A DNA stretch of 64,000 nucleotides from a virus (IMGVR_UViG_2788499822_000003:3818-67817); one strand, 5' to 3'. Positions 25,045-34,381 are shown, counted from the stretch's first letter. Numbers and translations: made by a program. Notes: generated by a model not told the origin, from the letters alone.

Positions 25045-25168
25045 TGCTTTGCAAAAGGCGCCACTGACGCCTTTGACATAGCACCATTTTCAGCCTGCCG
25101 TGGATTTCCCCATCATCCTAAGGGTGGCGGCAGGCCCTTTTTATTCACATACATACCGGAGTATCCGG

Positions 25169-25597
25169 ATGAATAACGAGCCTGCTATGGACTGGAACAC
25201 CCTGGTGTCAACAGTATTCTCAAAGGAAACAGCGATAGGCGGGGTTATCTCCGGTTTGTTTGGCATAGGCGGTTATGCCGCTATCGGTCGTCGATTCTGG
25301 TCAAATAACAGCGCTCAGATAGCCAATAACAACAAGTGGTCGGACACCCTGGATAAACAGGCGAATTATATCGACCGGTTAGAAAAAGCGCTGGAAGCTC
25401 GGGATGCAGAGATTGAGAAAAAGGATGAACTAATCCGCAGATATTATGAAGATTTGGCCGCAACAAAGGCCGAGTTGTTGGTAATTCAGGCTTCCCAGAA
25501 ATACCTCACGCAAAAAGTTGATGAACTTACCAGCATCAATCAAACGATGGCAGATGAGCTATCCCGTTTACGTTCAGAGTTGGGGAGGCAGACGTGA
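25169..25597 (+). CDS. Membrane-anchored coiled-coil protein of the lysis cassette (holin/antiholin candidate)
   Basis: GGAG RBS, one Gly-rich TM segment followed by a long coiled coil. Confidence 0.55.
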   Translation: MNNEPAMDWNTLVSTVFSKETAIGGVISGLFGIGGYAAIGRRFWSNNSAQIANNNKWSDTLDKQANYIDRLEKALEARDAEIEKKDELIRRYYEDLAATKAELLVIQASQKYLTQKVDELTSINQTMADELSRLRSELGRQT

Positions 25598-25842
25598 TCC
25601 ACCTCGAATCTAAAGACAGCGAAATTACTGCTACCTGGCGAATATTAATTGTGCTCGCATGCATTGCATTTGGCATTTACCTAGGAGGTGCTATCTCGGG
25701 TTATTACATAGCTCAAGCCCAATATTCACAGCGAGCTGCAGCACGGGATAAAACGGTAGGGGAAATAAAGCAGCAGGTTGCCCAACTTCCGAATAAGACC
25801 GCTGACGCGGTGAAGCAAGCAGTACAGGACGATAGCAAATGA
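25594..25842 (+). CDS. Single-TM lysis-cassette protein
   Basis: TM helix ILIVLACIAFGIYLGGAISGYYI; overlaps the endolysin start. Confidence 0.55.
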   Translation: MIHLESKDSEITATWRILIVLACIAFGIYLGGAISGYYIAQAQYSQRAAARDKTVGEIKQQVAQLPNKTADAVKQAVQDDSK

Positions 25843-26312
25843 GCCAAATAGCAAAAATGCTTCGCGCAGATGAAGGCTTCAGCAGCAAACCTTTTATCGA
25901 CACTCAGGGTTATCCCACCATCGGCACTGGACAGCGTATCGGTCCAAAAGGCGCTGCTATCCAAAATTATACTTTCACTATTTCTCAGGATATTTCGGAC
26001 GCCTGGATGCAGGTTATTGCTGAAAGCTATCGTCCAGAATTGTCAGCGCACAAAACTATTGGCCCAGCATGGATTGCCTGCGATGAGGTAAGAAAGGATG
26101 TCCTGTTGAATATGGCCTACCAGATGGGCAGTTCAGGACTCGCTGCTTTCAGCGCGACACTTTCCTTAATCGCCGCCGGGAAATTCAGGCAGGCCAGCAT
26201 AGAAATGCTCGATAGTGCTTGGTATAGACAGACCCCCCAACGCGCCGCCCGCCTTGCAAATCTCATGTCGAACGGCGATTACAACGCATACAAAGCGTGG
26301 TTCACGGTATGA
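25839..26312 (+). CDS. Endolysin, T4-lysozyme-like (GH24)
   Basis: DEG...DTQGYPTIGTG catalytic E-D-T pattern; MAYQMG, MLDSAWYRQTPQRA. Confidence 0.9.
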   Translation: MSQIAKMLRADEGFSSKPFIDTQGYPTIGTGQRIGPKGAAIQNYTFTISQDISDAWMQVIAESYRPELSAHKTIGPAWIACDEVRKDVLLNMAYQMGSSGLAAFSATLSLIAAGKFRQASIEMLDSAWYRQTPQRAARLANLMSNGDYNAYKAWFTV

Positions 26313-26539
26313 CTCTTATCGATAACTGGAAACAATGCTGGCGCTGGTATTCGATACACGCGCTGGTTATATCGGCCGCCATACCGCCGGCGTGGGATTA
26401 TGCAAAACACACAATTGGCATAGCCAGCCCGAATTGGATTGAATGGGGAGTTGCAGCAGCCGTGGCTATTAGCGGGGTCGTCGGCCGCCTAATCAAACAG
26501 GACAACACAAATGTGGTCAGCAATAGTGACGTTCATTAG
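26309..26539 (+). CDS. Putative holin (2 TM)
   Basis: MTLIDNWKQCWRWYS start typical of small phage holin-like proteins; two hydrophobic segments. Confidence 0.6.
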   Translation: MTLIDNWKQCWRWYSIHALVISAAIPPAWDYAKHTIGIASPNWIEWGVAAAVAISGVVGRLIKQDNTNVVSNSDVH

Positions 26540-26789
26540 CACCATCATCAATTTCTTTTTGAACCGAAAAAAATCTGAACAGCAACAGACTATCGAGACG
26601 GCCAATGAGGCCAGCCGAGCATCTGCTGACATTACCCGCCAGGACGAACAGGCGACCGAACATGACATCACTGAATCAGAAAAACAGACTGATACCGCTA
26701 TTGCTGATCTTCATTGTGCTGATAGCGTGCGCTCCAAAAACCGTATCGCTGCCGAAGCAATCAATCGTGCCAACCGTCCAATGCGGTGA
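26511..26789 (+). CDS. Putative i-spanin (Rz-like)
   Basis: N-terminal TM segment followed by a periplasmic helical region. Confidence 0.6.
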   Translation: MWSAIVTFISTIINFFLNRKKSEQQQTIETANEASRASADITRQDEQATEHDITESEKQTDTAIADLHCADSVRSKNRIAAEAINRANRPMR

Positions 26790-26970
26790 GGATAAACCCG
26801 ATGAAAGTCTCCCGGATTATCCAGTTTTTAACAACGATTTGGCGGCATATAGCGACGCCCAAACAGAATGGGCCATCAAAGCCGCTGGAGTCTTTGAGCG
26901 CAACCGGATCCTCCGCGCCAACACCGCAACCTGTATCCACAGACTCCGTGCCCGCGGACTCATCAATTAA
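26662..26970 (+). CDS. Putative o-spanin lipoprotein (Rz1-like)
   Basis: Overlaps the i-spanin in another frame; lipobox-like LIAC and Pro-rich mature region. Confidence 0.6.
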   Translation: MTSLNQKNRLIPLLLIFIVLIACAPKTVSLPKQSIVPTVQCGEDKPDESLPDYPVFNNDLAAYSDAQTEWAIKAAGVFERNRILRANTATCIHRLRARGLIN

Positions 26971-26986
26971 ACCTGAGGTAAAACAA

Positions 26987-27349
26987 ATGTCTTTTTCTCT
27001 TTCTGCTGTAGCCACAGCGTTGACTACCGTTGCAAGCGCCGTTAAGGCGAGCGAAGTGATTTATGAAGCCGGTGCTCAACTGATTCAAATCGCTGAAAAC
27101 GCCTATTCAAATGCTTCCGGCAGTGGAGCTACGAAAAAGGTCGCCGTGCTAGCCGCTCTCGAAGCGCTTTGCACTGAAATCGGCGAAGACTGGAGCACCA
27201 TAAAGGCCGAGATTAGTGCCTGGATCGATATGGTTATCCAGACATGGAATACTCTGAAATCGTTTGTCACTCCGATGGAAGATCCGACCCCCGTTGCTGA
27301 CGCAAATCCCACTGCTGTTGACGGAACGGCAACCGAGGAAGCTGTCTAA
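26987..27349 (+). CDS. Hypothetical protein (amphipathic helices)
   Basis: GAGG RBS before MSFSLSAV; AENAY...GSGATKK is reminiscent of LL-H holin-like proteins. Confidence 0.55.
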   Translation: MSFSLSAVATALTTVASAVKASEVIYEAGAQLIQIAENAYSNASGSGATKKVAVLAALEALCTEIGEDWSTIKAEISAWIDMVIQTWNTLKSFVTPMEDPTPVADANPTAVDGTATEEAV

Positions 27350-27381
27350 TAATTTCCTGTGAAAAAGCTATAAGGGGAATC

Positions 27382-27708
27382 ATGGAAAACCAACACCGTA
27401 AAATCTCCGGCTATAGGGATTTATTACCGGAAGAAATCGACCTGATGAACCGCATCAAGGTCAAGGGCGTCGAACTGCTTGCGCTTCAGGCTGAGTTGGC
27501 CGGCCGCCTGTCTACAGAAATGGAGCTGAAGATGGTTGCCGCTCGAGCATCTAAGTTGTCGCCGGAAGATGAAGGAAGTGACGAATGCGTCGAATTGCGC
27601 CGCTTCCAACAGGCCGAACCGCAACGCTGGGCCGCTATCGGCAAGACTGATATACAGACCGGCATTATGGCGCTGGTGCGAGCCGTTGCACAGCCGATGA
27701 CCTGTTAA
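27382..27708 (+). CDS. acb2: Anti-CBASS cyclic-oligonucleotide sponge Acb2
   Basis: NQHRKISGYRDL..EEIDLMNRIK and AEPQRWAAIGKTDIQTGIMALVRAVAQP match the conserved ends of Acb2. Confidence 0.85.
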   Translation: MENQHRKISGYRDLLPEEIDLMNRIKVKGVELLALQAELAGRLSTEMELKMVAARASKLSPEDEGSDECVELRRFQQAEPQRWAAIGKTDIQTGIMALVRAVAQPMTC

Positions 27709-27792
27709 CCAGTGCAAAAGTCAACTTCCTTTCCCTAATGGGCTTTGGCAAGAAAGACGCGTTATAATCTCCTGAAATTTCGGGAGGACTTT

Positions 27793-28047
27793 ATGAGTTA
27801 CAATCTGGGAAATCTTTCAAAAGAAGACATGGACAAGGTCAATGTGGAAATTGCTGCATCCGGCGTCGCGTACAAGGAAAGGCTCAACATACCGGTAGTG
27901 GCGCAGCAGGTTGAAGCCCAGCAGCCAGCAGAGATGAGGGCATATTTTCTGGAGAGGCTAGCGCATTATCGCAAGGTAAGCATCGATTTTCCAAAGGGAA
28001 CTGCCCCGGTGTATCAGCAGATGGCCGATGCCAACGGCAAGAAGTGA
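27793..28047 (+). CDS. holE: DNA polymerase III theta subunit homolog (HolE/Hot)
   Basis: NLGNLSKEDMDKVNVEIAASGVAYKERLNIPV...YFLERLAHYR; GGAGG RBS. Confidence 0.9.
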   Translation: MSYNLGNLSKEDMDKVNVEIAASGVAYKERLNIPVVAQQVEAQQPAEMRAYFLERLAHYRKVSIDFPKGTAPVYQQMADANGKK

Positions 28048-28110
28048 TCCCCAAGCCACACCGGCGAAAGACCCACTTTCCTTATGGGCCTGATAGGGAT
28101 TATTAATAAA

Positions 28111-28992
28111 CTACTCGCCGGTTTTTAGTTTTAGATAATTCCATTCCAAACCGCGATTATCATTATATTTATCAGTCATTTCTTTGTGCCTATGCCCTAA
28201 CAGGCGCTGAGTATCAATGCCGCTTTCTCTGTAGATACGCTCGGCGAGCGAACGTTGTTCATGAAATGATGGGGGAAATTCCCAATGCCCACTAGGAAAT
28301 GCGGTATCTCTGGCAAATTTAAAACCGTAGCTCAGGGAAAATGCATGCACCGGTTTATTTCCCAGCAGATAATCGTTACCTGGACACGATTCGATGATAT
28401 CACCCAAGGATATTTCGAGGGCAGGGCATTTTAAAGTCAATGGTAGCGCAAGCAGGTAGCCTGTTTTCTCTTGTTTGACATGTAAATGTTCATCAAAAAC
28501 ATCGGCGCGCCGCATTTTGGCAATATCTCCCCGCCGCTGCGCCGTGCTCAATGCCAGTAGCATGGCATGCGGCATGTATGAGCGAGATAGGTCCTGAGAA
28601 ACAGAGAAAATAGTTCTCCAATCCTGTTCATTGAGCCGGGATCGTTTCACCGGTTCGTGAGGAGATCGTAACGGTAATGCGGGGCTATAGGCAACCCATC
28701 CATCAAGCCATGCTTCGCGAAACAAATCGCTGATTATGTGAAATGCTGTTTTAGCTGCACTCGATTTACTGTTATTCTCATATACAGCAATGAATGTTTG
28801 TAGCATTTTTGGAGTAATGTTTCGGAGTCGTTTACCGCCTAAATCGGCAGTTAACCGGGTGAGGACCGCTGATTTGTTCCGGATAGTTTTTAATTTATAA
28901 TTTCGTTTCTCAATAATGGATTTATAAACGAGTATCCAATCTGCTAAAGTTTTATTTGACCGACGAGTCCATGATGGATATGTGTTTAACAT
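28111..28992 (-). CDS. Tyrosine recombinase, lambda-Int-like, lacking the N-terminal arm-binding domain (copy B)
   Basis: TAQRRGDI (R), EKTG (K), FHEQRS (HxxR), LLGH, KY (Y) all intact; 293 aa. Confidence 0.85.
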   Translation of the reverse strand: MLNTYPSWTRRSNKTLADWILVYKSIIEKRNYKLKTIRNKSAVLTRLTADLGGKRLRNITPKMLQTFIAVYENNSKSSAAKTAFHIISDLFREAWLDGWVAYSPALPLRSPHEPVKRSRLNEQDWRTIFSVSQDLSRSYMPHAMLLALSTAQRRGDIAKMRRADVFDEHLHVKQEKTGYLLALPLTLKCPALEISLGDIIESCPGNDYLLGNKPVHAFSLSYGFKFARDTAFPSGHWEFPPSFHEQRSLAERIYRESGIDTQRLLGHRHKEMTDKYNDNRGLEWNYLKLKTGE

Positions 28993-29062
28993 AATTATGC
29001 CTTAAGAAACCGCTGGATCTAATGTCCAGAATCCCCGCTGGCGCAGGGAACATTTAGAATTA

Positions 29063-29470
29063 CTAAACTGATTTTAAGACCGGTTTTGATACAAATTTGC
29101 AGATTCCATTGATTTTTTCGATGTGAATTTGCACATTAATTGCGGCCCGCCATAGCAACTCAAAATCACTGCCCTGGTCAATATAAATATTAATTAGGTC
29201 TCGAGCATTAAATTTATTATATATATCAATTGGTTTGACGTACTGAGACAGTCCTAACCATGTATTTCGATTCTTTATATGCAATTCCATCTTGTTTGGT
29301 AATTTTGCATGATGGCTATCGTTATTTTTTTCGTCTAGATGCATTTTTAATGCATTGAATGCGCAATGCGTGTTAAATTTTAGTTCATAATAATTTGAGC
29401 ATGAAAATTCATAGGAAAATTGATGCCATTGACTAACTAATCTGAAATAAAAATTGTTATCCATATGCAC
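29063..29470 (-). CDS. Hypothetical AT-rich protein
   Basis: 135-aa ORF starting 1 nt after the HTH gene stop. Confidence 0.55.
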   Translation of the reverse strand: MHMDNNFYFRLVSQWHQFSYEFSCSNYYELKFNTHCAFNALKMHLDEKNNDSHHAKLPNKMELHIKNRNTWLGLSQYVKPIDIYNKFNARDLINIYIDQGSDFELLWRAAINVQIHIEKINGICKFVSKPVLKSV

Positions 29471-29471
29471 C

Positions 29472-29957
29472 TCAGTTTTCTGCTATTTGATTTTCTGGAT
29501 CTTCAATATAGGATTTTTTAGCATAGTAGAGTTGCTCGATTGATACGCCATCTGGCAACAATGCGTTATTTCCAGACATATCGATGACGGTACCGTCACT
29601 ATGAATTGCATAGAGTTTTCCGTCTATATCGAACCATTCGCGCGTTTCCACATCGAGATCAATGCGCATATTGGCGATTTGCATTGATGGCATATAAATT
29701 ATGCGTTCATAACCGTCCTCCGTTACGAATTCCATTGCAATTTCATCAGCAGCGGCGGTTATAGCCCGGATGCGGGCATACATGAAAGACAACATGCCCC
29801 GGATAGCCTCGTCCGGGATTTCGTTTTCACCCGTGGCCCACCTGCGGATGGTTCTGTCGGTTACGCCAAATAATTCAGAGAGTGGCATTTTCCAATGTTT
29901 ACCAAACATGGATTCGGCCATTTCGGTAAAATATTCAATTTTGTCTAATTTGTTCAT
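29472..29957 (-). CDS. HTH protein (Aca-like N-terminus) with additional acidic C-terminal domain
   Basis: GKHWKMPLSELFGVTDRTIRRWATGE HTH. Confidence 0.7.
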   Translation of the reverse strand: MNKLDKIEYFTEMAESMFGKHWKMPLSELFGVTDRTIRRWATGENEIPDEAIRGMLSFMYARIRAITAAADEIAMEFVTEDGYERIIYMPSMQIANMRIDLDVETREWFDIDGKLYAIHSDGTVIDMSGNNALLPDGVSIEQLYYAKKSYIEDPENQIAEN

Positions 29958-29971
29958 AACAGTGGACTCTA

Positions 29972-30325
29972 TTAGTTAGCGTATACATAGCAAACGGATT
30001 GACCGACCCATGAGCGCGGGGCGCGTTGAAAATTGTGCCGTCCGCAGTTATTTTCCTCGCAAATCCAGGATTGGCCGTGTTTGAGGCCATTGCGTTCTGC
30101 GGTCTCAGCCAATTCGATATACCGACCCATTTTTAAAGCATCAGGTTTGTACTCTTCATACAGTTCGAAATCCTGCGCTGCACTCTTCGCCTTTGCCCAA
30201 GACTGGCGAAGAGCGGATGCAAAAATTTTAGAAATTGGTTCTTTGCGACCCTGAGCAACACGTTTGCGAGTCAGTGCCCATGCCTGTTGCATGATGGATT
30301 TTGTGTCGTAGATGAATTTAGTCAT
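29972..30325 (-). CDS. Small unknown protein, first gene of operon B (anti-defence candidate)
   Basis: Start MTKFIYDTKSIMQQAW; directly downstream of a promoter carrying an inverted repeat. Confidence 0.6.
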   Translation of the reverse strand: MTKFIYDTKSIMQQAWALTRKRVAQGRKEPISKIFASALRQSWAKAKSAAQDFELYEEYKPDALKMGRYIELAETAERNGLKHGQSWICEENNCGRHNFQRAPRSWVGQSVCYVYAN

Positions 30326-30376
30326 TTTGGAGCCCTCGGCTGTTGGGAGTTGCTCGAGCCCCTCCCCTTGAAAACA

Positions 30377-30410
30377 ATAATACAACTTGTCCGATTTTCG
30401 GACAAGTTGT
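30377..30410 (-). promoter_or_regulatory. Sigma70 promoter with overlapping 13-bp perfect inverted-repeat operator
   Basis: TTGTCC-17bp-TATTAT on the minus strand; ACAACTTGTCCGA-TTT-TCGGACAAGTTGT at 30382-30410. Confidence 0.75.
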
Positions 30411-30447
30411 TTATTCAATATTTCGTGATATTCCTAGCAACGATTGC

Positions 30448-31338
30448 TCAGATGATTATTTTCCTGAACTCCCGACCCCGGTCATCATCGTACCTGTCGG
30501 TTGTGCGCTGGTATTTATGCCCGAGCAGCCTTTGAGTGTTGATGCCCTGGTCGCGGTATAGCCGCTCCGCGAGAGACCGCTGCTCATGAAACGAGGGCGG
30601 GGTTCCCAACCATTGATCGCGCGGGAATATCGCATCCCTCACTGCCTGGAATCGATGCGATAACGAATGGACCATGATTTGCCGGTGCGACAGCAGGAAA
30701 TCATTGCCGGGACACATATCAATGACTTCTCGTACAGAAATACCCAGAGCATCTAGGCGCAAATCTAGCGGTATGGCAATTTTGGCGCCGGTCTTCAGTT
30801 GCTCGATATGCAGATGGTCATCGAAAATCTGCTCGCGCCGCATAGCTGAAATATCGCTACGCCGTTGTGCGGTGACGAGCGTCAGTAGCATGGCGAGAGG
30901 AAAATAGTCCGGTGATTGGAATTTTGCGGCTAAATAAATCCTTTGCCATTCATCAACCGTCAGCCGATCTCGCTTAACGACATCATCCGGGACTAGGACT
31001 GGCGTGACGGGATTTTTGTTTATCCATCCGCTGAATTCTGCTTCGCGGAAAACGTCTTTAATCAGAAAGTGCGCAATGGCCGCCGATCTCGTTTTTCCCT
31101 GGGCAACGTAGAAATCGAGAAAATATAAGACATGGTGCGGTGTAACGGACCCGATAGGCAATGGCCCAATAAAGCGATTTAGGACCGAAAGCATCATGCG
31201 TTTATGCTGGAGCGTTGTCCTGGCAAAATTTTTGGCCTGCAGGCGTTTCTCATAAACGGTTAACCAGGTTGAAACGCGGCGATATGACGGGTTGGCCCAG
31301 CCGGCGGCAACCGGCAGGATAGCATTCATAATACCCAT
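30448..31338 (-). CDS. Tyrosine recombinase, lambda-Int-like, lacking the arm-binding domain (copy A)
   Basis: TAQRRSDI, LKTG, PPSFHEQRSLAER, LLGH, RYDDDRGREF; 296 aa. Confidence 0.85.
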   Translation of the reverse strand: MGIMNAILPVAAGWANPSYRRVSTWLTVYEKRLQAKNFARTTLQHKRMMLSVLNRFIGPLPIGSVTPHHVLYFLDFYVAQGKTRSAAIAHFLIKDVFREAEFSGWINKNPVTPVLVPDDVVKRDRLTVDEWQRIYLAAKFQSPDYFPLAMLLTLVTAQRRSDISAMRREQIFDDHLHIEQLKTGAKIAIPLDLRLDALGISVREVIDMCPGNDFLLSHRQIMVHSLSHRFQAVRDAIFPRDQWLGTPPSFHEQRSLAERLYRDQGINTQRLLGHKYQRTTDRYDDDRGREFRKIII

Positions 31339-31400
31339 TGAAATTATTCCTCATGACAGTTATGGACCTGCCTGCACGGCAGTAGCCAATGAGGATGATT

Positions 31401-31631
31401 TCAGACGTCCTTTAAGGGCCGCGCTATCAGTTTGTACTCCGGGTGCATATCAGCTAGCAAGAGCAACAATTCGTATTCGCCAATATTCAAAGAGCGTGTG
31501 CCTTTTTTGGCATTCTCTTTTTGCTGCCAGCTTGTGAGTGCGTAACCGAAACGTTCAGCGCACTCCTTAAGCGTCATCCCGGTAGCGATACGTGCCGCGC
31601 GGACTTCATCCGGCGTTGGCTTATTCAACAT
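31401..31631 (-). CDS. Small XRE-type HTH protein (Aca-like)
   Basis: TPDEVRAARIATGMTLKECAERFGYALTSWQQKE; overlaps the upstream small gene. Confidence 0.75.
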   Translation of the reverse strand: MLNKPTPDEVRAARIATGMTLKECAERFGYALTSWQQKENAKKGTRSLNIGEYELLLLLADMHPEYKLIARPLKDV

Positions 31632-31890
31632 CGTTAAAAACCGTAGTGCATCCCATCGAGTTCAAAGCATGAATAGAGAGATTGCGACGGTTTTGTTCGC
31701 AAAAATCTTCATACTCGGCGCGTGAAAGGCTTTTCCCACGAATCTGATTTACGCGTGAGCCATTTGATTCAACGTACAGCATGATGTTGTCGCCATTTTC
31801 ATATGCTGAAACATTCACGTTGTGACCAAGATTTTTTCCGTTGCGGAAAGCGGTAGTAGACGCATTGCCAACAATTTCGATGAATTTCAT
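31621..31890 (-). CDS. Small unknown protein, first gene of operon A (anti-CRISPR/anti-defence candidate)
   Basis: GGAG RBS, 89 aa, lies between an IR-containing promoter and an HTH gene. Confidence 0.65.
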   Translation of the reverse strand: MKFIEIVGNASTTAFRNGKNLGHNVNVSAYENGDNIMLYVESNGSRVNQIRGKSLSRAEYEDFCEQNRRNLSIHALNSMGCTTVFNDVE

Positions 31891-31932
31891 TTTATTCTCC
31901 AGAACAGTAAGTTATCTCGTTTCGATGAGTTA

Positions 31933-31960
31933 ACTATACTCTCAAATGAGAGTAATGCAA
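31933..31960 (-). promoter_or_regulatory. Sigma70 promoter with 8-bp inverted-repeat operator
   Basis: TTGCAT-16bp-TATAGT on the minus strand; TACTCTCA-AA-TGAGAGTA at 31937-31954. Confidence 0.7.
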
Positions 31961-32205
31961 GAAATAAAAACAGGATCTTAATCGCAAGTTTTATCACTCA
32001 TCGCCGTGCTGTCGAAAGAGTGCCCGTTAGCCGTGACGCTGAAACTCTATACAGCAGAGCTCGGGGATTTAAGTAAACGGCGAATGCCGCCCGTTACCGG
32101 CTCATAGTGGCTGCGCAGGCCATGGCAGAAGAATGTGCGCGCGGACAAAGAAAAGCTTTTTGTGAGTGCTATCGTGCTTTTACCGATAACTACTTAAGGA
32201 AAAGC

Positions 32206-32496
32206 ATGTCCATTCAAGAGGTATTTAAGACCGTCCATATTGATAAAGAAGACCAAGATTTTTGGCGATATGAAATATCATGGATTACGCCTGAAGAAAA
32301 AGTATTGGTGAGAGTTTCTAAGTCATTGCCGGATAAGAGTGCTACACAATATAGTTCGGCCATAGATTTTTTTGAATTTGAGATACCCGTAACCAAAACC
32401 CCCCAAGGGAAGGTCATCATGCGTCCTAATGATGTTCTTATTAGTAAACAATTAATTAACAGATGTATAGAACACCGAGAAAGTTTCAATAAGTAA
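32206..32496 (+). CDS. Hypothetical moron protein
   Basis: AAGGA RBS before MSIQEVFK; own terminator. Confidence 0.55.
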   Translation: MSIQEVFKTVHIDKEDQDFWRYEISWITPEEKVLVRVSKSLPDKSATQYSSAIDFFEFEIPVTKTPQGKVIMRPNDVLISKQLINRCIEHRESFNK

Positions 32497-32500
32497 TAAG

Positions 32501-32524
32501 AACCGCCTCCGGGCGGTTTTTTTT
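32501..32524 (+). terminator. Intrinsic terminator
   Basis: AACCGCC-TCCG-GGCGGTT plus T run. Confidence 0.8.
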
Positions 32525-32576
32525 CAATGGAGCGAATATAGCAAATATTGAACTCTCTCAGGCCCAGCTGATACGT

Positions 32577-32798
32577 ATGAATCTGCTTTCCACCCTAAAC
32601 TGCGATACAGCTGCGGCAACCTTGGCGATTGAATTTGTGCAGGATGATCCCCTCAACTATCAGATGTTCATGCAGCAATACGGTCGCGTAACTACCGAAA
32701 GCGAAGTGGTCGCCAGAACGCTCAAAGCGTTCAAGGAATCGCAGGAGGCGCTAGCCTTGTTTTCGATCGAAACAAACACCTCAACAGCAACCAGTTAA
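32577..32798 (+). CDS. Hypothetical phage protein
   Basis: 73-aa ORF in the late region. Confidence 0.45.
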   Translation: MNLLSTLNCDTAAATLAIEFVQDDPLNYQMFMQQYGRVTTESEVVARTLKAFKESQEALALFSIETNTSTATS

Positions 32799-32801
32799 CA
32801 G

Positions 32802-32839
32802 GCATTACAGCAGGCATTTTAGAGTGCCTGTGATAATGC
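32802..32839. other. Imperfect hairpin common in lambdoid lysis-to-terminase regions
   Basis: GCATTACAGCAGGCA-TTTTAGAG-TGCCTGTGATAATGC. Confidence 0.5.
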
Positions 32840-32923
32840 GCAGGCAAAGCTGCCATCAACTCCCTCATGCCCGCCAAGGGCTCGGTTGCTGATGGCTTTT
32901 TTATTTTGTCAGGAGCACATTCT

Positions 32924-34381
32924 ATGCAGGTCACTATCGACGGTGTCCAGTATGTGCCTGTCTGTAATCTGACTCATCGAATTGGCATCGCCATAACCAC
33001 TCATAACCGTCCAGATGTCATTAGCAAATCGCTTGAAAAGCATTTGAAATATTTGCCTACTGGCGCGTTTGTGTTGCTGGTGGATGATGGTTCACTGCCG
33101 CCGGTAGTCGAGCCAGAAGGTGTGTATCTCATACGCCATGATAAATCGCTGGGTATCGTTGCATCTAAAAACGCCAGCCTTTCTGCGTTGATGGATGCCG
33201 GGTGCGATCATCTATTTCTCTGGGACGATGATGCGTATCCGATAGCCGATAACTGGCATTTGCCTTACATCGAATCACCGGAACCACATCTGGCGTATCA
33301 ATTTATCGATCTCGCCGGGCCGCGCAAACTGCACGACATCGCAGAGTTGTACCGCGATGACCGGCATGTGGCATACACCGGACAGCGTGGCGTAATGCTG
33401 TATTACCATCGCAGCGCTATCGAGAAAGTCGGTGGGTTCGATCCGGTCTATGGTCGCGGGATGTACGAGCATTCCGATCTGGCGCTACGTATTCACAATG
33501 CCGGGCTGACATCCTGGGCATTTGCGGACGTGGTTGGTTCCGACAAACTGATCTACTCATTGGATGAGCATGAGCAGGTTGCCCGGTCAGTGCCGCAATC
33601 GAATCGCGAGGAACAGGTTAAACGCAACGTCAAAATCCACAACGAGCGGCGCGACACGGGCTATACCGGTTACGTGGAATATCGGCTTCAACGCAACCTG
33701 TGCATCACCACGTTACTGACCAGCCAGAACGACCCGCAGCGCAACACTAAATTGAAAGCATCACCCGACCTATTGAGCAAATGGGCTGCATCCGTTCGTG
33801 GTTCCGATGCCATTATCTTGGCAGACGAATTAACAGCGGCGCCCGCCGGCGCATCAATCAGTACGGTTCCAGATGTTCGCATGAATGTCTATTTCCGCCG
33901 CTGGTTGCACATCTACCAATATTTGCGCGATCATCCTGAATACCGTCTGGTCTGGTGCACGGATGGGACCGATGTCGAAATGCTCCGAGAACCATGGCAG
34001 GACATGGAGCCGGGTAAAATCTATGTAGGCTCCGAGCCTAAAACCTACGCTGATGCGTGGGCGAGGGAGAAACACCCAGAGCGGGTTTATCAGCAGTTCA
34101 TCGAACAACACCCTAACGAAACTATGCTCAATGCCGGTTTGCTCGGCGGCAACCGCGAAGATGTAATGGCGTTCGCTCATGGCATTGTTCGGTTATATTA
34201 CCGCATCGAAAGCCAGAGATTCTGGAAAACGGAGCAGGCCAGGGCTGCTATTGGCGATATGTTGGCCTTTAGCATCGTGGCAAAGGCGTTAGGTGACCGT
34301 ATTGTAACCGGGCCGCGTGTGCATACCGTGTTCAAATCTGACGGAATCGGGAGGGAGTTTGCATGGTGGATGCATAAGTGA
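32924..34381 (+). CDS. Two-domain glycosyltransferase (GT2 plus a second GT-A domain)
   Basis: IAITTHNR, LVDDGS, LWDDD in the N-terminal domain; WCTDGTDV and LNAGLLGG in the C-terminal domain; AGGAG RBS. Confidence 0.82.
   Translation: MQVTIDGVQYVPVCNLTHRIGIAITTHNRPDVISKSLEKHLKYLPTGAFVLLVDDGSLPPVVEPEGVYLIRHDKSLGIVASKNASLSALMDAGCDHLFLWDDDAYPIADNWHLPYIESPEPHLAYQFIDLAGPRKLHDIAELYRDDRHVAYTGQRGVMLYYHRSAIEKVGGFDPVYGRGMYEHSDLALRIHNAGLTSWAFADVVGSDKLIYSLDEHEQVARSVPQSNREEQVKRNVKIHNERRDTGYTGYVEYRLQRNLCITTLLTSQNDPQRNTKLKASPDLLSKWAASVRGSDAIILADELTAAPAGASISTVPDVRMNVYFRRWLHIYQYLRDHPEYRLVWCTDGTDVEMLREPWQDMEPGKIYVGSEPKTYADAWAREKHPERVYQQFIEQHPNETMLNAGLLGGNREDVMAFAHGIVRLYYRIESQRFWKTEQARAAIGDMLAFSIVAKALGDRIVTGPRVHTVFKSDGIGREFAWWMHK

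What the first reader, a model, noticed from the sequence alone, without database searches (positions are those of the whole stretch)
28111..31960. Tandem duplicated architecture: [IR-operator promoter - small unknown gene - HTH - arm-less lambda-Int-like recombinase] x2
Seen: two consecutive minus-strand operons with the same layout but unrelated cargo. Each ends in a ~295-aa tyrosine recombinase with an intact R-K-H-R-H-Y set, sharing blocks such as PPSFHEQRSLAER and lacking the N-terminal arm-binding domain. They sit between lysis and packaging genes, far from where the prophage integrase is expected. Known: promoter IR plus small gene plus HTH is the acr-aca layout, and arm-less recombinases act on simple core sites. 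Inference: self-mobile anti-defence cassettes, or an integron-like capture/shuffling system for counter-defence genes. I know of no described system with this layout.
Basis: partly seen in the sequence, partly recalled or inferred. Interest (0 to 1): 0.8.

Follow-up and report, generated by a model that had tools for sequence, protein, structure and literature searches.

The report
Anti-CRISPR operons ending in repeat-gated recombinases
Two neighbouring prophage operons look like anti-CRISPR gene sets, and each ends in a copy of a bacterial CRISPR repeat followed by a short DNA recombinase, which suggests (unproven) that the phage may also cut and rearrange the host's CRISPR arrays.

Summary
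Window 31960-28111 (minus strand) carries two operons, each with an inverted-repeat promoter, small unknown genes, an HTH gene and an arm-less lambda-Int-like recombinase (296 and 293 aa, 42% identical, catalytic residues intact). The prophage's real integrase lies elsewhere.

New findings:
- Each recombinase is preceded by a solitary CRISPR-repeat mimic, type I-F before rec2 and type I-E before rec1.
- In six lineages the I-F hairpin sits inside a stem that pairs with the recombinase's ribosome-binding site, using different sequences each time.
- The same recombinase follows validated acrIF8-aca2 in phage ZF40.
- A 99%-identical copy elsewhere follows an AcrIF11 homologue, so the cargo is swapped.

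These are anti-CRISPR operons with Racr-like repeats (known kinds) joined to a conserved recombinase (not described in the papers I searched).

Most likely, with modest confidence, the recombinase acts on CRISPR-repeat DNA. The only two genomes that carry a rec2-type cassette and have I-F arrays of more than three repeats show chimeric repeats in those arrays: three bracketed inversions in one, a single junction in the other. The R'-R form of these chimeras was absent from 300 other sampled genomes and about 5,100 E. coli genomes. Those arrays are orphans, which confounds the link.

Cassette self-mobility and an integron-like mechanism found no support.

The parts
31998..32140 (-). Conserved non-coding block upstream of operon A; the left homology flank of the module
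   Evidence: 82-89% identical to L181-L183, while the cargo between it and rec2 is unrelated.
31933..31960 (-). Promoter A: TTGCAT-16-TATAGT with an 18-bp palindromic operator (31937-31954)
   Evidence: Read directly from the sequence. Same design as the ZF40 acrIF8 promoter with its IR1 site (PMC6765145).
31621..31890 (-). 89-aa candidate anti-CRISPR of unknown family
   Evidence: No Pfam, PHROG, NCBIfam or PDB match. Homologous to the 92-aa gene at the same position in Pectobacterium prophages L090 and L099.
31401..31631 (-). 76-aa HTH protein, Aca-like (nearest solved structure is Aca10)
   Evidence: Best PDB match is 7xi5, which is Aca10, at E = 0.012. Its 70-aa homologue in L138 hits HTH_31 and MqsA below cut-off.
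31368..31384 (-). Solitary type I-F CRISPR-repeat mimic (stem CTGCC/GGCAG, loop GTGCA), in the same sense as rec2
   Evidence: The only exact match to the 16-mer in the window. The same 16-mer recurs at a 60-bp period in the P. polonicum CRISPR array. Conserved next to recombinases in 15 of the loci then held and in L243.
31348..31395 (-). rec2 leader: an outer stem pairs an upstream anti-SD sequence with the rec2 Shine-Dalgarno region and encloses the I-F hairpin
   Evidence: Single-sequence folds of seven leaders give the same architecture with six different outer-stem sequences.
30448..31338 (-). rec2: arm-less lambda-Int-like tyrosine recombinase, 296 aa
30377..30410 (-). 13-bp-arm inverted repeat overlapping promoter B (TTGTCC-17-TATTAT); also terminator-like for operon A
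29972..30325 (-). 117-aa unknown gene, a candidate anti-CRISPR
   Evidence: No family match. Called as 117 aa in L181 and L183.
29472..29957 (-). 161-aa protein with an N-terminal Aca2-like HTH and a C-terminal extension
   Evidence: Pairwise blastp to ZF40 Aca2 gives 2.6e-4 over residues 32-74. Weak MerR-HTH and PHROG hits.
29063..29470 (-). 135-aa low-GC unknown gene
   Evidence: The 500-bp stretch holding most of it is 34% GC. No family match. Conserved in L181 and L183.
29031..29050 (-). Solitary type I-E CRISPR-repeat mimic, in the same sense as rec1
   Evidence: 19 of 20 bases match the I-E repeat core, and the one change keeps a G-U pair. A 39-nt query around it hits annotated CRISPR features in 5,298 of 5,426 E. 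coli genomes.
28111..28992 (-). rec1: arm-less lambda-Int-like tyrosine recombinase, 293 aa
28077..28110 (-). 3' end of the shared module, at a hairpin between the convergent rec1 and theta-like genes
   Evidence: The 97.7%-identity match to L181 ends at 28077.

Best explanation
The region holds two tandem anti-CRISPR operons, one directed at type I-F systems and one at type I-E.

Shown or well supported:
- Each operon has a strong promoter overlapped by an operator for its own HTH repressor (Aca-like).
- Each carries one or two small candidate Acr genes.
- Each has a solitary CRISPR-repeat mimic, transcribed in the crRNA sense 12-16 nt after the last cargo gene, as described for RNA anti-CRISPRs (Racrs).
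- Each ends in a recombinase equivalent to lambda Int residues 75-356, that is, the core-binding and catalytic domains without the arm-binding domain.

Inferred, about 0.6: in rec2-type genes the repeat hairpin lies inside a longer stem that sequesters the recombinase's ribosome-binding site. Cas6f cleavage at the 3' base of the hairpin would separate the anti-SD sequence from the SD, so the recombinase would be made mainly in cells with an active I-F system.

Inferred, about 0.3-0.35: the recombinase's DNA substrate is the palindromic core of the matching CRISPR repeat. By recombining repeats within or between host arrays it would invert or delete spacers, and possibly whatever lies between arrays. 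That would be a heritable, DNA-level counterpart to the protein and RNA inhibitors encoded upstream.
For: Anti-CRISPR identity:
- ZF40 gp28 (56% identical to rec2) follows the validated acrIF8-aca2 operon (PMC6765145).
- L181 and L183 carry rec2 at 99% identity behind an AcrIF11-family gene (NCBIfam 116 bits against a cut-off of 50; PDB 6kyf at 6.7e-13).
- The HTH genes resemble Aca10 and Aca2 weakly.
- An Acb2-like gene lies 400 bp from the module.

Repeat mimics. Racrs lying next to acr genes, one of them 11 nt after acrIC5, are published (PMC10651486).

Link between repeat and recombinase:
- The I-F mimic lies 24-40 nt upstream of the start codon in the rec2 clade and in the distant L138, L162 and L243 recombinases (L243 is 35% identical to rec1).
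- It lies about 10 nt after the stop codon in L179 and L180.
- The two paralogues in the window are paired with different subtypes.

RNA gate: outer stems with six different sequences all pair with the SD region (z about -1.6 to -5.0). The 3' fragment alone is unstructured.

Action on arrays:
- P. fontis and P. polonicum are the only rec2-type cassette carriers I could search whole that have I-F arrays of more than three repeats.
- The P. fontis array has three inverted segments, each bounded by left-left and right-right chimeric repeats, plus one repeat in which only the loop is flipped.
- The P. polonicum array consists of two divergent arms joined at a right-right chimera.
- The right-right (R'-R) chimera was absent from the other 300 genomes of the family sample, 59 of which have I-F repeats. 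In that sample only P. polonicum has both the chimera and a rec2-type gene.
- It was also absent from the 5,165 E. coli genomes with I-F-like matches.
- Two of the three inversions carry junction loops in mixed orientation. That fits staggered strand exchange on either side of the loop, as tyrosine recombinases do (inference).

Precedent: phage AP1.1 integrates into CRISPR repeats (bioRxiv 10.1101/2020.10.09.333658).
Against: - About half of the short-recombinase loci (Salmonella, Pluralibacter, L101, L184, L010-L014) have no detectable repeat mimic.
- 78 of 80 sampled viral I-F-like repeat units have no recombinase nearby, so the mimic works without the recombinase.
- The array evidence rests on two genomes of one genus. 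Both arrays are orphans, with no Cas6f detected, so decay of unselected arrays is a confound.
- Two other carriers have tiny, normal arrays.
- I-E arrays in P. polonicum and in a Pluralibacter carrier of a rec1-clade gene are normal.
- One left-left palindrome occurs at the end of a cas-linked array in a genome with no rec2-type gene.
- A 5-bp stem is short for a core-binding site.
- The rec1 leader has no anti-SD stem.
- The window's host and its CRISPR types are unknown.
- Nothing here shows recombinase activity.
Confidence: 0.4

Rival explanations
1. Racr plus cassette-exchange recombinase. The repeat mimics are ordinary RNA anti-CRISPRs. The recombinase serves the cassette itself, inserting or exchanging anti-defence cassettes between co-infecting phages at a site near its own gene.
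For: A 3.3-kb block (31384-28077) is 97.7% identical between two otherwise unrelated phage backbones, and identity drops abruptly at both ends. Cargo is swapped at a fixed point 46-50 bp upstream of the recombinase start in two lineages. The same cassette sits in Salmonella prophages with different packaging modules. The cassettes always run against the late genes, either between Q and lysis or between lysis and terminase.
Against: No flanking repeats above chance. Only one candidate site per recombinase. No empty site or circle junction was found. The swap boundary equals the edge of a conserved leader, and partly conserved flanks (82-89%) exist, so homologous recombination is sufficient. The model does not explain why different repeat subtypes pair with different paralogues, or why the SD is locked by the repeat hairpin.
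Confidence: 0.25
2. Bystander or other-function recombinase. The arm-less Int is a conserved moron with an unrelated role, for example interfering with the integration or excision of competing lambdoid phages or satellites, or resolving multimers. It sits next to repeat mimics only because both accumulate in the same anti-defence island.
For: Many family members lack a mimic. The island also holds Acb2-like and theta-like genes. In L101 a short recombinase sits beside an excisionase-like gene and a 376-aa arm-type integrase. The proteins are 36-40% identical to true lambdoid integrases, so they could plausibly bind similar core sites.
Against: The mimic lies within tens of nucleotides of the recombinase in at least five diverged lineages, and is structurally coupled to its SD with compensating stem sequences. 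Other positions in the island were available.
Confidence: 0.2
3. Integron-like capture platform, or remnant of a helper-embedded satellite (HE-PICI).
For: The recombinase is arm-less and the neighbouring genes vary. Integrases that target prophage late genes are known (PMC10111431).
Against: No attC-like element follows each gene. The cargo is co-transcribed upstream or downstream of the recombinase, not in a divergent array. The closest structures are lambda Int, not IntI. The units are 1.5-2.3 kb with no AlpA, replication or capsid-redirection genes, and they run against the late genes, whereas HE-PICIs are whole islands co-oriented with, and lying inside, a late gene.
Confidence: 0.05

Closest known systems
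acrIF8-aca2 locus of Pectobacterium phage ZF40 (Birkholz et al. 2019, PMC6765145)
   Same: Same layout and a homologous recombinase: an IR-operator promoter, a small acr gene, an HTH aca gene, then gp28 (296 aa, 56% identical to rec2) with the same I-F repeat mimic and anti-SD leader.
   Different: The published work covers the promoter, AcrIF8 and Aca2 only. The words 'gp28' and 'recombinase' do not occur in that paper. The window has different cargo and a second, I-E-type unit in tandem.
RNA anti-CRISPRs (Racrs) / viral solitary repeat units (Camara-Wilpert et al. 2023, PMC10651486)
   Same: A single CRISPR-repeat-like hairpin without cas genes, in the crRNA sense, a few nucleotides downstream of acr-type genes. 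Co-location with acr genes is a published feature.
   Different: Here the repeat is fused to the 5' leader (or 3' end) of a tyrosine recombinase gene and enclosed by an SD-sequestering stem. That paper mentions neither integrases nor recombinases. Inhibitory activity of these particular units is untested.
Lambda integrase C75 fragment (residues 75-356; PDB 1z19, 1p7d)
   Same: Same two domains and catalytic residues. TM about 0.73 and 36-37% identity.
   Different: These are natural stand-alone genes without the arm-binding domain (PF09003 absent). They are not the prophage's integrase and sit in the late region.
Phage AP1.1 integration into type II-A CRISPR repeats (Varble et al., bioRxiv 10.1101/2020.10.09.333658)
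   Same: A phage-borne repeat-like site and a recombinase used together against CRISPR, with an Acr expressed first. Integration and excision can delete spacers.
   Different: In that case the phage's own integrase inserts the whole prophage into the array. Here the phages integrate elsewhere with a separate integrase, and the proposed action is rearrangement of arrays. This is unproven.
Simple-site tyrosine invertases and resolvases (Cre/loxP, FimB/FimE, shufflon Rci); from established knowledge
   Same: No arm domain, and a short palindromic site with a central overlap. Such enzymes can give inversion or deletion depending on site orientation and overlap symmetry.
   Different: No pair of sites exists inside the phage. 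Sequence and fold are much closer to lambda Int than to Cre.

Membership tests
Tyrosine recombinase (Pfam PF00589) | Catalytic R-K-H-R-H/W-Y residues and the catalytic fold | tested here: met
   PF00589 hits at 4.6e-10 and 5.2e-13. R159, K182, H251, R254, H274 and Y283 are conserved across 31 sequences. The model matches the lambda Int catalytic core.
Lambda-type phage integrase (heterobivalent Int) | N-terminal arm-type DNA-binding domain (PF09003) | tested here: not met
   The proteins start about 20 residues before the core-binding domain. PF09003 is present only in the 375-aa relatives. The structural match is to Int residues 75-356.
Lambda-type phage integrase (heterobivalent Int) | Gene lies at the prophage end next to attP/attL and mediates prophage integration | tested here: not met
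   The genes lie mid-prophage between lysis and terminase. A separate 466-aa integrase sits at the provirus end. ZF40 also has a second integrase.
acr-aca operon | Promoter overlapped by an inverted-repeat operator | tested here: met
   31937-31954 and 30382-30410. Same design as ZF40 IR1.
acr-aca operon | HTH gene belonging to a known Aca family | tested here: inconclusive
   76-aa protein against Aca10 (7xi5), E = 0.012. 161-aa protein against Aca2, pairwise 2.6e-4. No Pfam hit passes its cut-off.
acr-aca operon | Upstream gene is a demonstrated anti-CRISPR or a homologue of one | tested here: not met
   The window's 89-, 117- and 135-aa proteins match no family. The feature is met only in relatives: AcrIF8 in ZF40 and AcrIF11 in L181.
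Racr / solitary repeat unit | Sequence and hairpin similarity to a CRISPR repeat, solitary, with no cas genes | tested here: met
   I-F: the 16-mer is identical to array repeats. I-E: 19 of 20 bases, and hits to annotated CRISPR features in E. coli. There is one copy of each in the window.
Racr / solitary repeat unit | Host carries the matching CRISPR-Cas subtype, and the RNA inhibits it | not testable with these tools
   Only the provirus record is held and the host was not identified. No RNA run is listed.
Integron | IntI-type integrase with attI and cassettes each ending in an attC | tested here: not met
   No repeated folded site follows each gene. The fold is closest to lambda Int; IntI (2a3v) scores only 1.1e-6 at 15% identity.
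Helper-embedded PICI | A whole satellite (int-alpA, replication and late zones) inserted in, and co-oriented with, a helper late gene | tested here: not met
   The units are 1.5-2.3 kb, run against the late genes and lie between genes. The definition is taken from PMC10111431.

The most novel reading that the evidence does not exclude
Arm-less Int-like recombinases in phage anti-CRISPR operons are enzymes that recombine the host's CRISPR repeats themselves. Paralogues are matched to repeat subtypes (rec2 to I-F, rec1 to I-E). The enzyme would be produced only when the host's Cas6 cuts a repeat mimic in its mRNA leader. It would then invert or delete spacers, or DNA between arrays, giving a heritable, DNA-level anti-CRISPR mechanism.
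Probability: 0.3. Interest if true: 0.95.

Novelty: new variant of a known kind. Interest (0 to 1): 0.8.

Why it matters
Anti-CRISPR proteins and RNA anti-CRISPRs are known, but both act transiently on Cas proteins. A recombinase built into anti-CRISPR operons has not been described in the papers I could search. It is conserved from this prophage to the model phage ZF40 and is coupled to a CRISPR-repeat hairpin.

Two ideas follow, both directly testable with existing strains:
- A Cas6-operated translational switch, meaning a phage gene that senses which CRISPR type the host runs.
- Enzymatic scrambling or erasure of CRISPR arrays.

Either would add a new layer to the phage-CRISPR arms race. 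It could also explain oddly rearranged or orphan arrays in genomes.

Even if the recombinase does something else, the repeat-plus-recombinase unit is a useful new marker for finding anti-CRISPR loci. The window offers three unassigned candidate Acr genes, of 89, 117 and 135 aa.

Tried and rejected
- **Close DNA relatives.** Megablast of the region and both flanks against GenBank phages found only one unrelated 87-bp match.
- **Host identity.** The host flank is at most 77% identical to 400 sampled Enterobacterales genomes. Cluster look-ups gave no names.
- **Rfam.** No family matched at E <= 1 over 27000-33000, and nothing relevant matched in five related loci.
- **Repeats bracketing the cassettes.** The repeat finder gave only short, low-identity pairs of the size chance gives.
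- **IMG/VR scan with the recombinase alignment.** It returned mostly ordinary arm-type integrases at provirus ends.
- **The 16-mer as a recombination site.** I first read it that way, then found it is the type I-F CRISPR repeat.
- **Other repeat-like hairpins next to recombinases that lack a mimic.** Only unrelated GC hairpins just 3' of the Salmonella and Pluralibacter genes turned up.
- **Prophage integration into the array.** Rejected. In P. fontis, host genes separate the array from the prophage, and the recombinase cassette lies about 30 kb from the array. In P. polonicum they are about 1 Mb apart.
- **BLAST of the I-F unit against E. coli.** No match, because no exact 11-nt word is shared.
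- **Earlier notes of this scan.** None links CRISPR repeats with recombinases.
- **Column-wise covariation counting on the leader alignment.** Not attempted, because MAFFT does not put the differently placed outer stems in register. Single-sequence folds were used instead.

Full report
**1. What is in the sequence**

On the minus strand between the lysis genes (25100-27349) and the HNH/terminase genes (from 35383) lie seven co-oriented genes that run against the late genes.

- **Operon A.** It starts at a TTGCAT-16-TATAGT promoter whose spacer and -10 box are covered by a perfect 18-bp palindrome (31954-31937). It encodes an 89-aa protein, an overlapping 76-aa HTH protein, and rec2 (296 aa).
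- **Operon B.** It starts at a 13-bp-arm inverted repeat (30410-30382). The repeat overlaps a TTGTCC-17-TATTAT promoter and also looks like a terminator for operon A. It encodes a 117-aa protein, a 161-aa protein with an N-terminal HTH, a 135-aa low-GC protein, and rec1 (293 aa).

rec1 and rec2 are 42% identical.

- Both hit Pfam Phage_integrase. rec2 also passes the Phage_int_M (central domain) cut-off, while rec1 hits it only below cut-off. Neither has the arm-binding domain found in their 375-aa relatives.
- The catalytic Arg, Lys, His, Arg, His and Tyr are conserved across the family.
- An AlphaFold model of rec2 (pLDDT 84) superposes on lambda Int residues 75-356 bound to core DNA (1z19, 1p7d; TM about 0.73, 36-37% identity).
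- The provirus record has one further tyrosine recombinase, a 466-aa integrase at its left end beside a host ferredoxin gene, followed by an excisionase-like gene.

The two short recombinases are therefore extra genes. The one correction is that operon B has an additional gene between the HTH gene and the recombinase.

**2. The family and its neighbours**

The short form is a real family of 286-310-aa proteins in Pectobacterium, Brenneria, Erwinia, Photorhabdus, Salmonella, Pluralibacter and others.

In every prophage context I could read, the gene runs against the late genes. It sits between the Q antiterminator and lysis, or between lysis and terminase, with one to three small same-strand genes upstream and/or downstream.

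The best match in GenBank phages is gp28 of Pectobacterium phage ZF40 (296 aa, 56% identical to rec2).

- gp28 lies directly downstream of gp31-gp30-gp29.
- gp31-gp30 is the acrIF8-aca2 operon, whose Aca2 repressor and IR operator have been characterised experimentally (PMC6765145).
- ZF40 has a second, ordinary integrase elsewhere.

A 6.1-Mb genome (L181) and two metagenome contigs carry the same tandem block.

- It is 97.7% identical from 46 bp upstream of rec2 to 34 bp past rec1 (window 31384-28077), inside a different phage backbone.
- The segment holding the promoter, the 89-aa gene and the 76-aa gene is replaced by an unrelated segment encoding a 152-aa protein and a 57-aa HTH protein.
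- The 152-aa protein is an AcrIF11-family ADP-ribosyltransferase (NCBIfam 116 bits against a cut-off of 50; PDB 6kyf at 6.7e-13).

Other relationships point the same way:

- The 89-aa protein recurs at the same position in Pectobacterium prophages.
- The small 53-57-aa HTH proteins form a recurring family.
- The 76-aa HTH protein's nearest solved structure is Aca10, weakly (E = 0.012).
- The 161-aa protein's HTH resembles Aca2, weakly.

**3.

I aligned the 110 nt upstream of the recombinase genes. This showed an invariant 16-mer, ACTGCCG-NN-CAGGCAG, 24-40 nt before the start codon in the window, L181-L183, ZF40, three Pectobacterium prophages, L138 and L162.

I searched the P. polonicum genome for this motif and found it repeated every 60 bp. 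It is the type I-F CRISPR repeat.

The equivalent position before rec1 (29050-29031) holds TTCCCTGCGCCAGCGGGGAT.

- This matches 19 of 20 bases of the type I-E repeat core. The single change keeps a G-U pair.
- A 39-nt query around it hits annotated CRISPR features in 5,298 of 5,426 complete E. coli genomes.

Both units are in the crRNA sense relative to the operon and lie 12-16 nt after the last cargo gene. Each occurs once in the window.

Solitary repeat units of this kind, often next to acr genes, have been shown to act as RNA anti-CRISPRs (PMC10651486). The two operons are therefore best read as a type I-F-directed and a type I-E-directed anti-CRISPR unit.

**4. Coupling of the repeat to the recombinase**

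The I-F unit is not merely nearby.

- In seven leaders the hairpin is enclosed by a 6-10-bp outer stem, and the 3' arm of that stem covers the recombinase's Shine-Dalgarno region.
- The outer-stem sequences differ between lineages: CCUCAU/AUGAGG in the window, CCUCCUUAGACA/UGUCAUGAGG in L181, CCCUCU/AGAGGG in Pectobacterium, and CCUAUCC/GGAUAGG, GAUCUCC/GGAGAUU and ACUCAUCU/AGAUGAGU in the three distant recombinases.
- The fold z-scores range from -1.6 to -5.0.
- In L181 the cargo swap replaced the 5' arm, yet pairing is kept.

Cas6f is known to cut immediately 3' of this hairpin (established knowledge of type I-F crRNA processing). A cut there would detach the anti-SD arm. The remaining 3' fragment is unstructured. 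The inference is that recombinase translation is switched on by the host's Cas6f.

Further points on the coupling:

- In L179 and L180 the same unit lies about 10 nt after the recombinase stop codon instead.
- In the tree the I-F-linked recombinases form several clades, and rec1 sits in a separate clade found in I-E hosts.
- The coupling is one-way. Only 2 of 80 sampled viral I-F-like units have a recombinase in the same locus, and only one of those is adjacent.
- About half of the short recombinases have no unit.

**5. What does the recombinase do?**

No repeats bracket the cassettes. Cargo-swap boundaries coincide with the edge of the conserved leader. Partly conserved flanks exist. Self-mobility and integron-like capture are therefore not needed to explain the data, although the abrupt ends of the 97.7%-identical block leave some room for them.

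A recombinase without arms acts on simple palindromic core sites, and the CRISPR repeat next to it is such a site. I therefore examined the host arrays in the carriers whose whole genomes I could search.

- **P. polonicum.** The orphan I-F array consists of two divergent arms joined by a chimeric repeat made of two right halves (TTTCTAAGCTGCC-loop-GGCAGCTTAGAAA).
- **P. fontis.** A 14-repeat array has three inverted segments. Each is bounded by a left-left chimera on one side and a right-right chimera on the other. One further repeat has only its loop flipped.
- **Loop orientation.** Two of the three inversions carry junction loops in mixed orientation. A single crossover in a 5-bp stem cannot give this. 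Staggered exchanges on either side of the loop can.

Controls:

- The right-right (R'-R) chimera occurs in none of the other 300 genomes of a family-level sample, 59 of which have I-F repeats (about 1,550 repeats). In that sample P. polonicum is also the only genome with a rec2-type gene.
- It occurs in none of the 5,165 E. coli genomes with I-F-like matches.
- Assembly error is unlikely. The forward and reverse-complement forms of the repeat core share no word longer than 5 nt, and one of the two genomes is a complete chromosome.

**6. Caveats**

- The array evidence rests on two genomes of one genus.
- None of the five carrier genomes has Cas6f, so the arrays are orphans and could be decaying for other reasons.
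- Two carriers have three-repeat arrays that are normal.
- I-E arrays in P. polonicum and in a Pluralibacter carrier of a rec1-clade gene are normal.
- A lone left-left palindrome exists at the end of a cas-linked array in a genome without a rec2-type gene.
- The window's own host is unknown.

My estimates:

| Claim | Probability |
|---|---|
| The operons are anti-CRISPR operons | about 0.85 |
| The repeat mimics are real | about 0.9 |
| The Cas6-gated leader | about 0.6 |
| The recombinase acts on CRISPR-repeat DNA | about 0.3-0.35 |
| Cassette exchange (rival) | about 0.25 |
| Unrelated function (rival) | about 0.2 |

**7. Comparison with what is known, and novelty**

acr-aca operons, Racrs and lambda-type recombinases are each known. 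One phage is known to integrate into CRISPR repeats using its own integrase.

A conserved arm-less recombinase as the terminal gene of anti-CRISPR operons, tied to a repeat mimic through an SD-sequestering stem, is absent from the papers I could search. This includes the ZF40 and Racr papers.

I class it as a new variant of a known kind. The array-recombining reading would be a new mechanism if it proves true.

Noticed in passing
L207 (P. fontis contig C53) 37-840; L215 38-60: A 14-repeat type I-F CRISPR array with three inverted segments bounded by left-left and right-right chimeric repeats, plus one repeat in which only the loop is inverted. A further right-right chimera lies at the start of the contig that carries the prophage.
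   Followed up: yes
L200 10541-10996 (P. polonicum chromosome 3116540-3116995): An orphan I-F array made of two divergent arms joined at a palindromic right-right chimeric repeat. It has no leader and no cas genes nearby. It could be the product of a deletion between two divergent arrays through the palindromic repeat cores.
   Followed up: partly
L099 5695-5922 (also L346 from about 2550): Pectobacterium prophages carry four tandem type I-E-like repeat units at a 50-nt period (the last gap is 99 nt), about 2 kb from the I-F unit and recombinase. This may be a multi-unit Racr or a mini-array with 21-nt spacers.
   Followed up: no
L209 9112-9144 (P. polonicum): A solitary extended palindrome built on the I-E repeat core (GTATT-CCCCGCGCCAGCGGGG-AATAC) lies between two normal I-E arrays. 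It resembles a left-left chimera.
   Followed up: no
L219 1495-1530: A perfect palindrome built from two left halves of the I-F repeat lies at the trailer end of a normal, cas6f-adjacent array, in a genome with no rec2-type gene. This is a background case for the chimera argument.
   Followed up: partly
window 27382-27708 and 27745-28047 (+): An Acb2/Tad1-hairpin protein (anti-CBASS type, Pfam 2e-15) and a DNA polymerase III theta-like protein lie directly beside rec1. In L181 the Acb2-like gene abuts rec1 with no theta-like gene between them.
   Followed up: partly
L101 7474-10633: In Erwinia persicina a 296-aa short recombinase with a 150-aa upstream gene is followed by a 112-aa gene, an excisionase-like gene and a 376-aa arm-type integrase at the contig end. 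Here the cassette sits in the int-xis region, not the late region.
   Followed up: no
L093 7883-7899; L096 7887-7907: Salmonella and Pluralibacter short recombinases, which have no CRISPR-repeat mimic, are followed within 4-17 nt of the stop codon by similar GC-rich hairpins (CCCGG-TAT-type). Their function is unknown.
   Followed up: no
window 31998-32140: A non-coding block of about 145 bp upstream of operon A is conserved (82-89%) in all copies of the module, although the cargo next to it differs. It contains a small terminator-like hairpin at 32079-32091.
   Followed up: partly
L007 1-2089 (provirus left end, outside the window): The true integrase (466 aa) and an excisionase-like gene lie beside a host yfhL-type ferredoxin gene, marking the integration end of the prophage.
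   Followed up: partly
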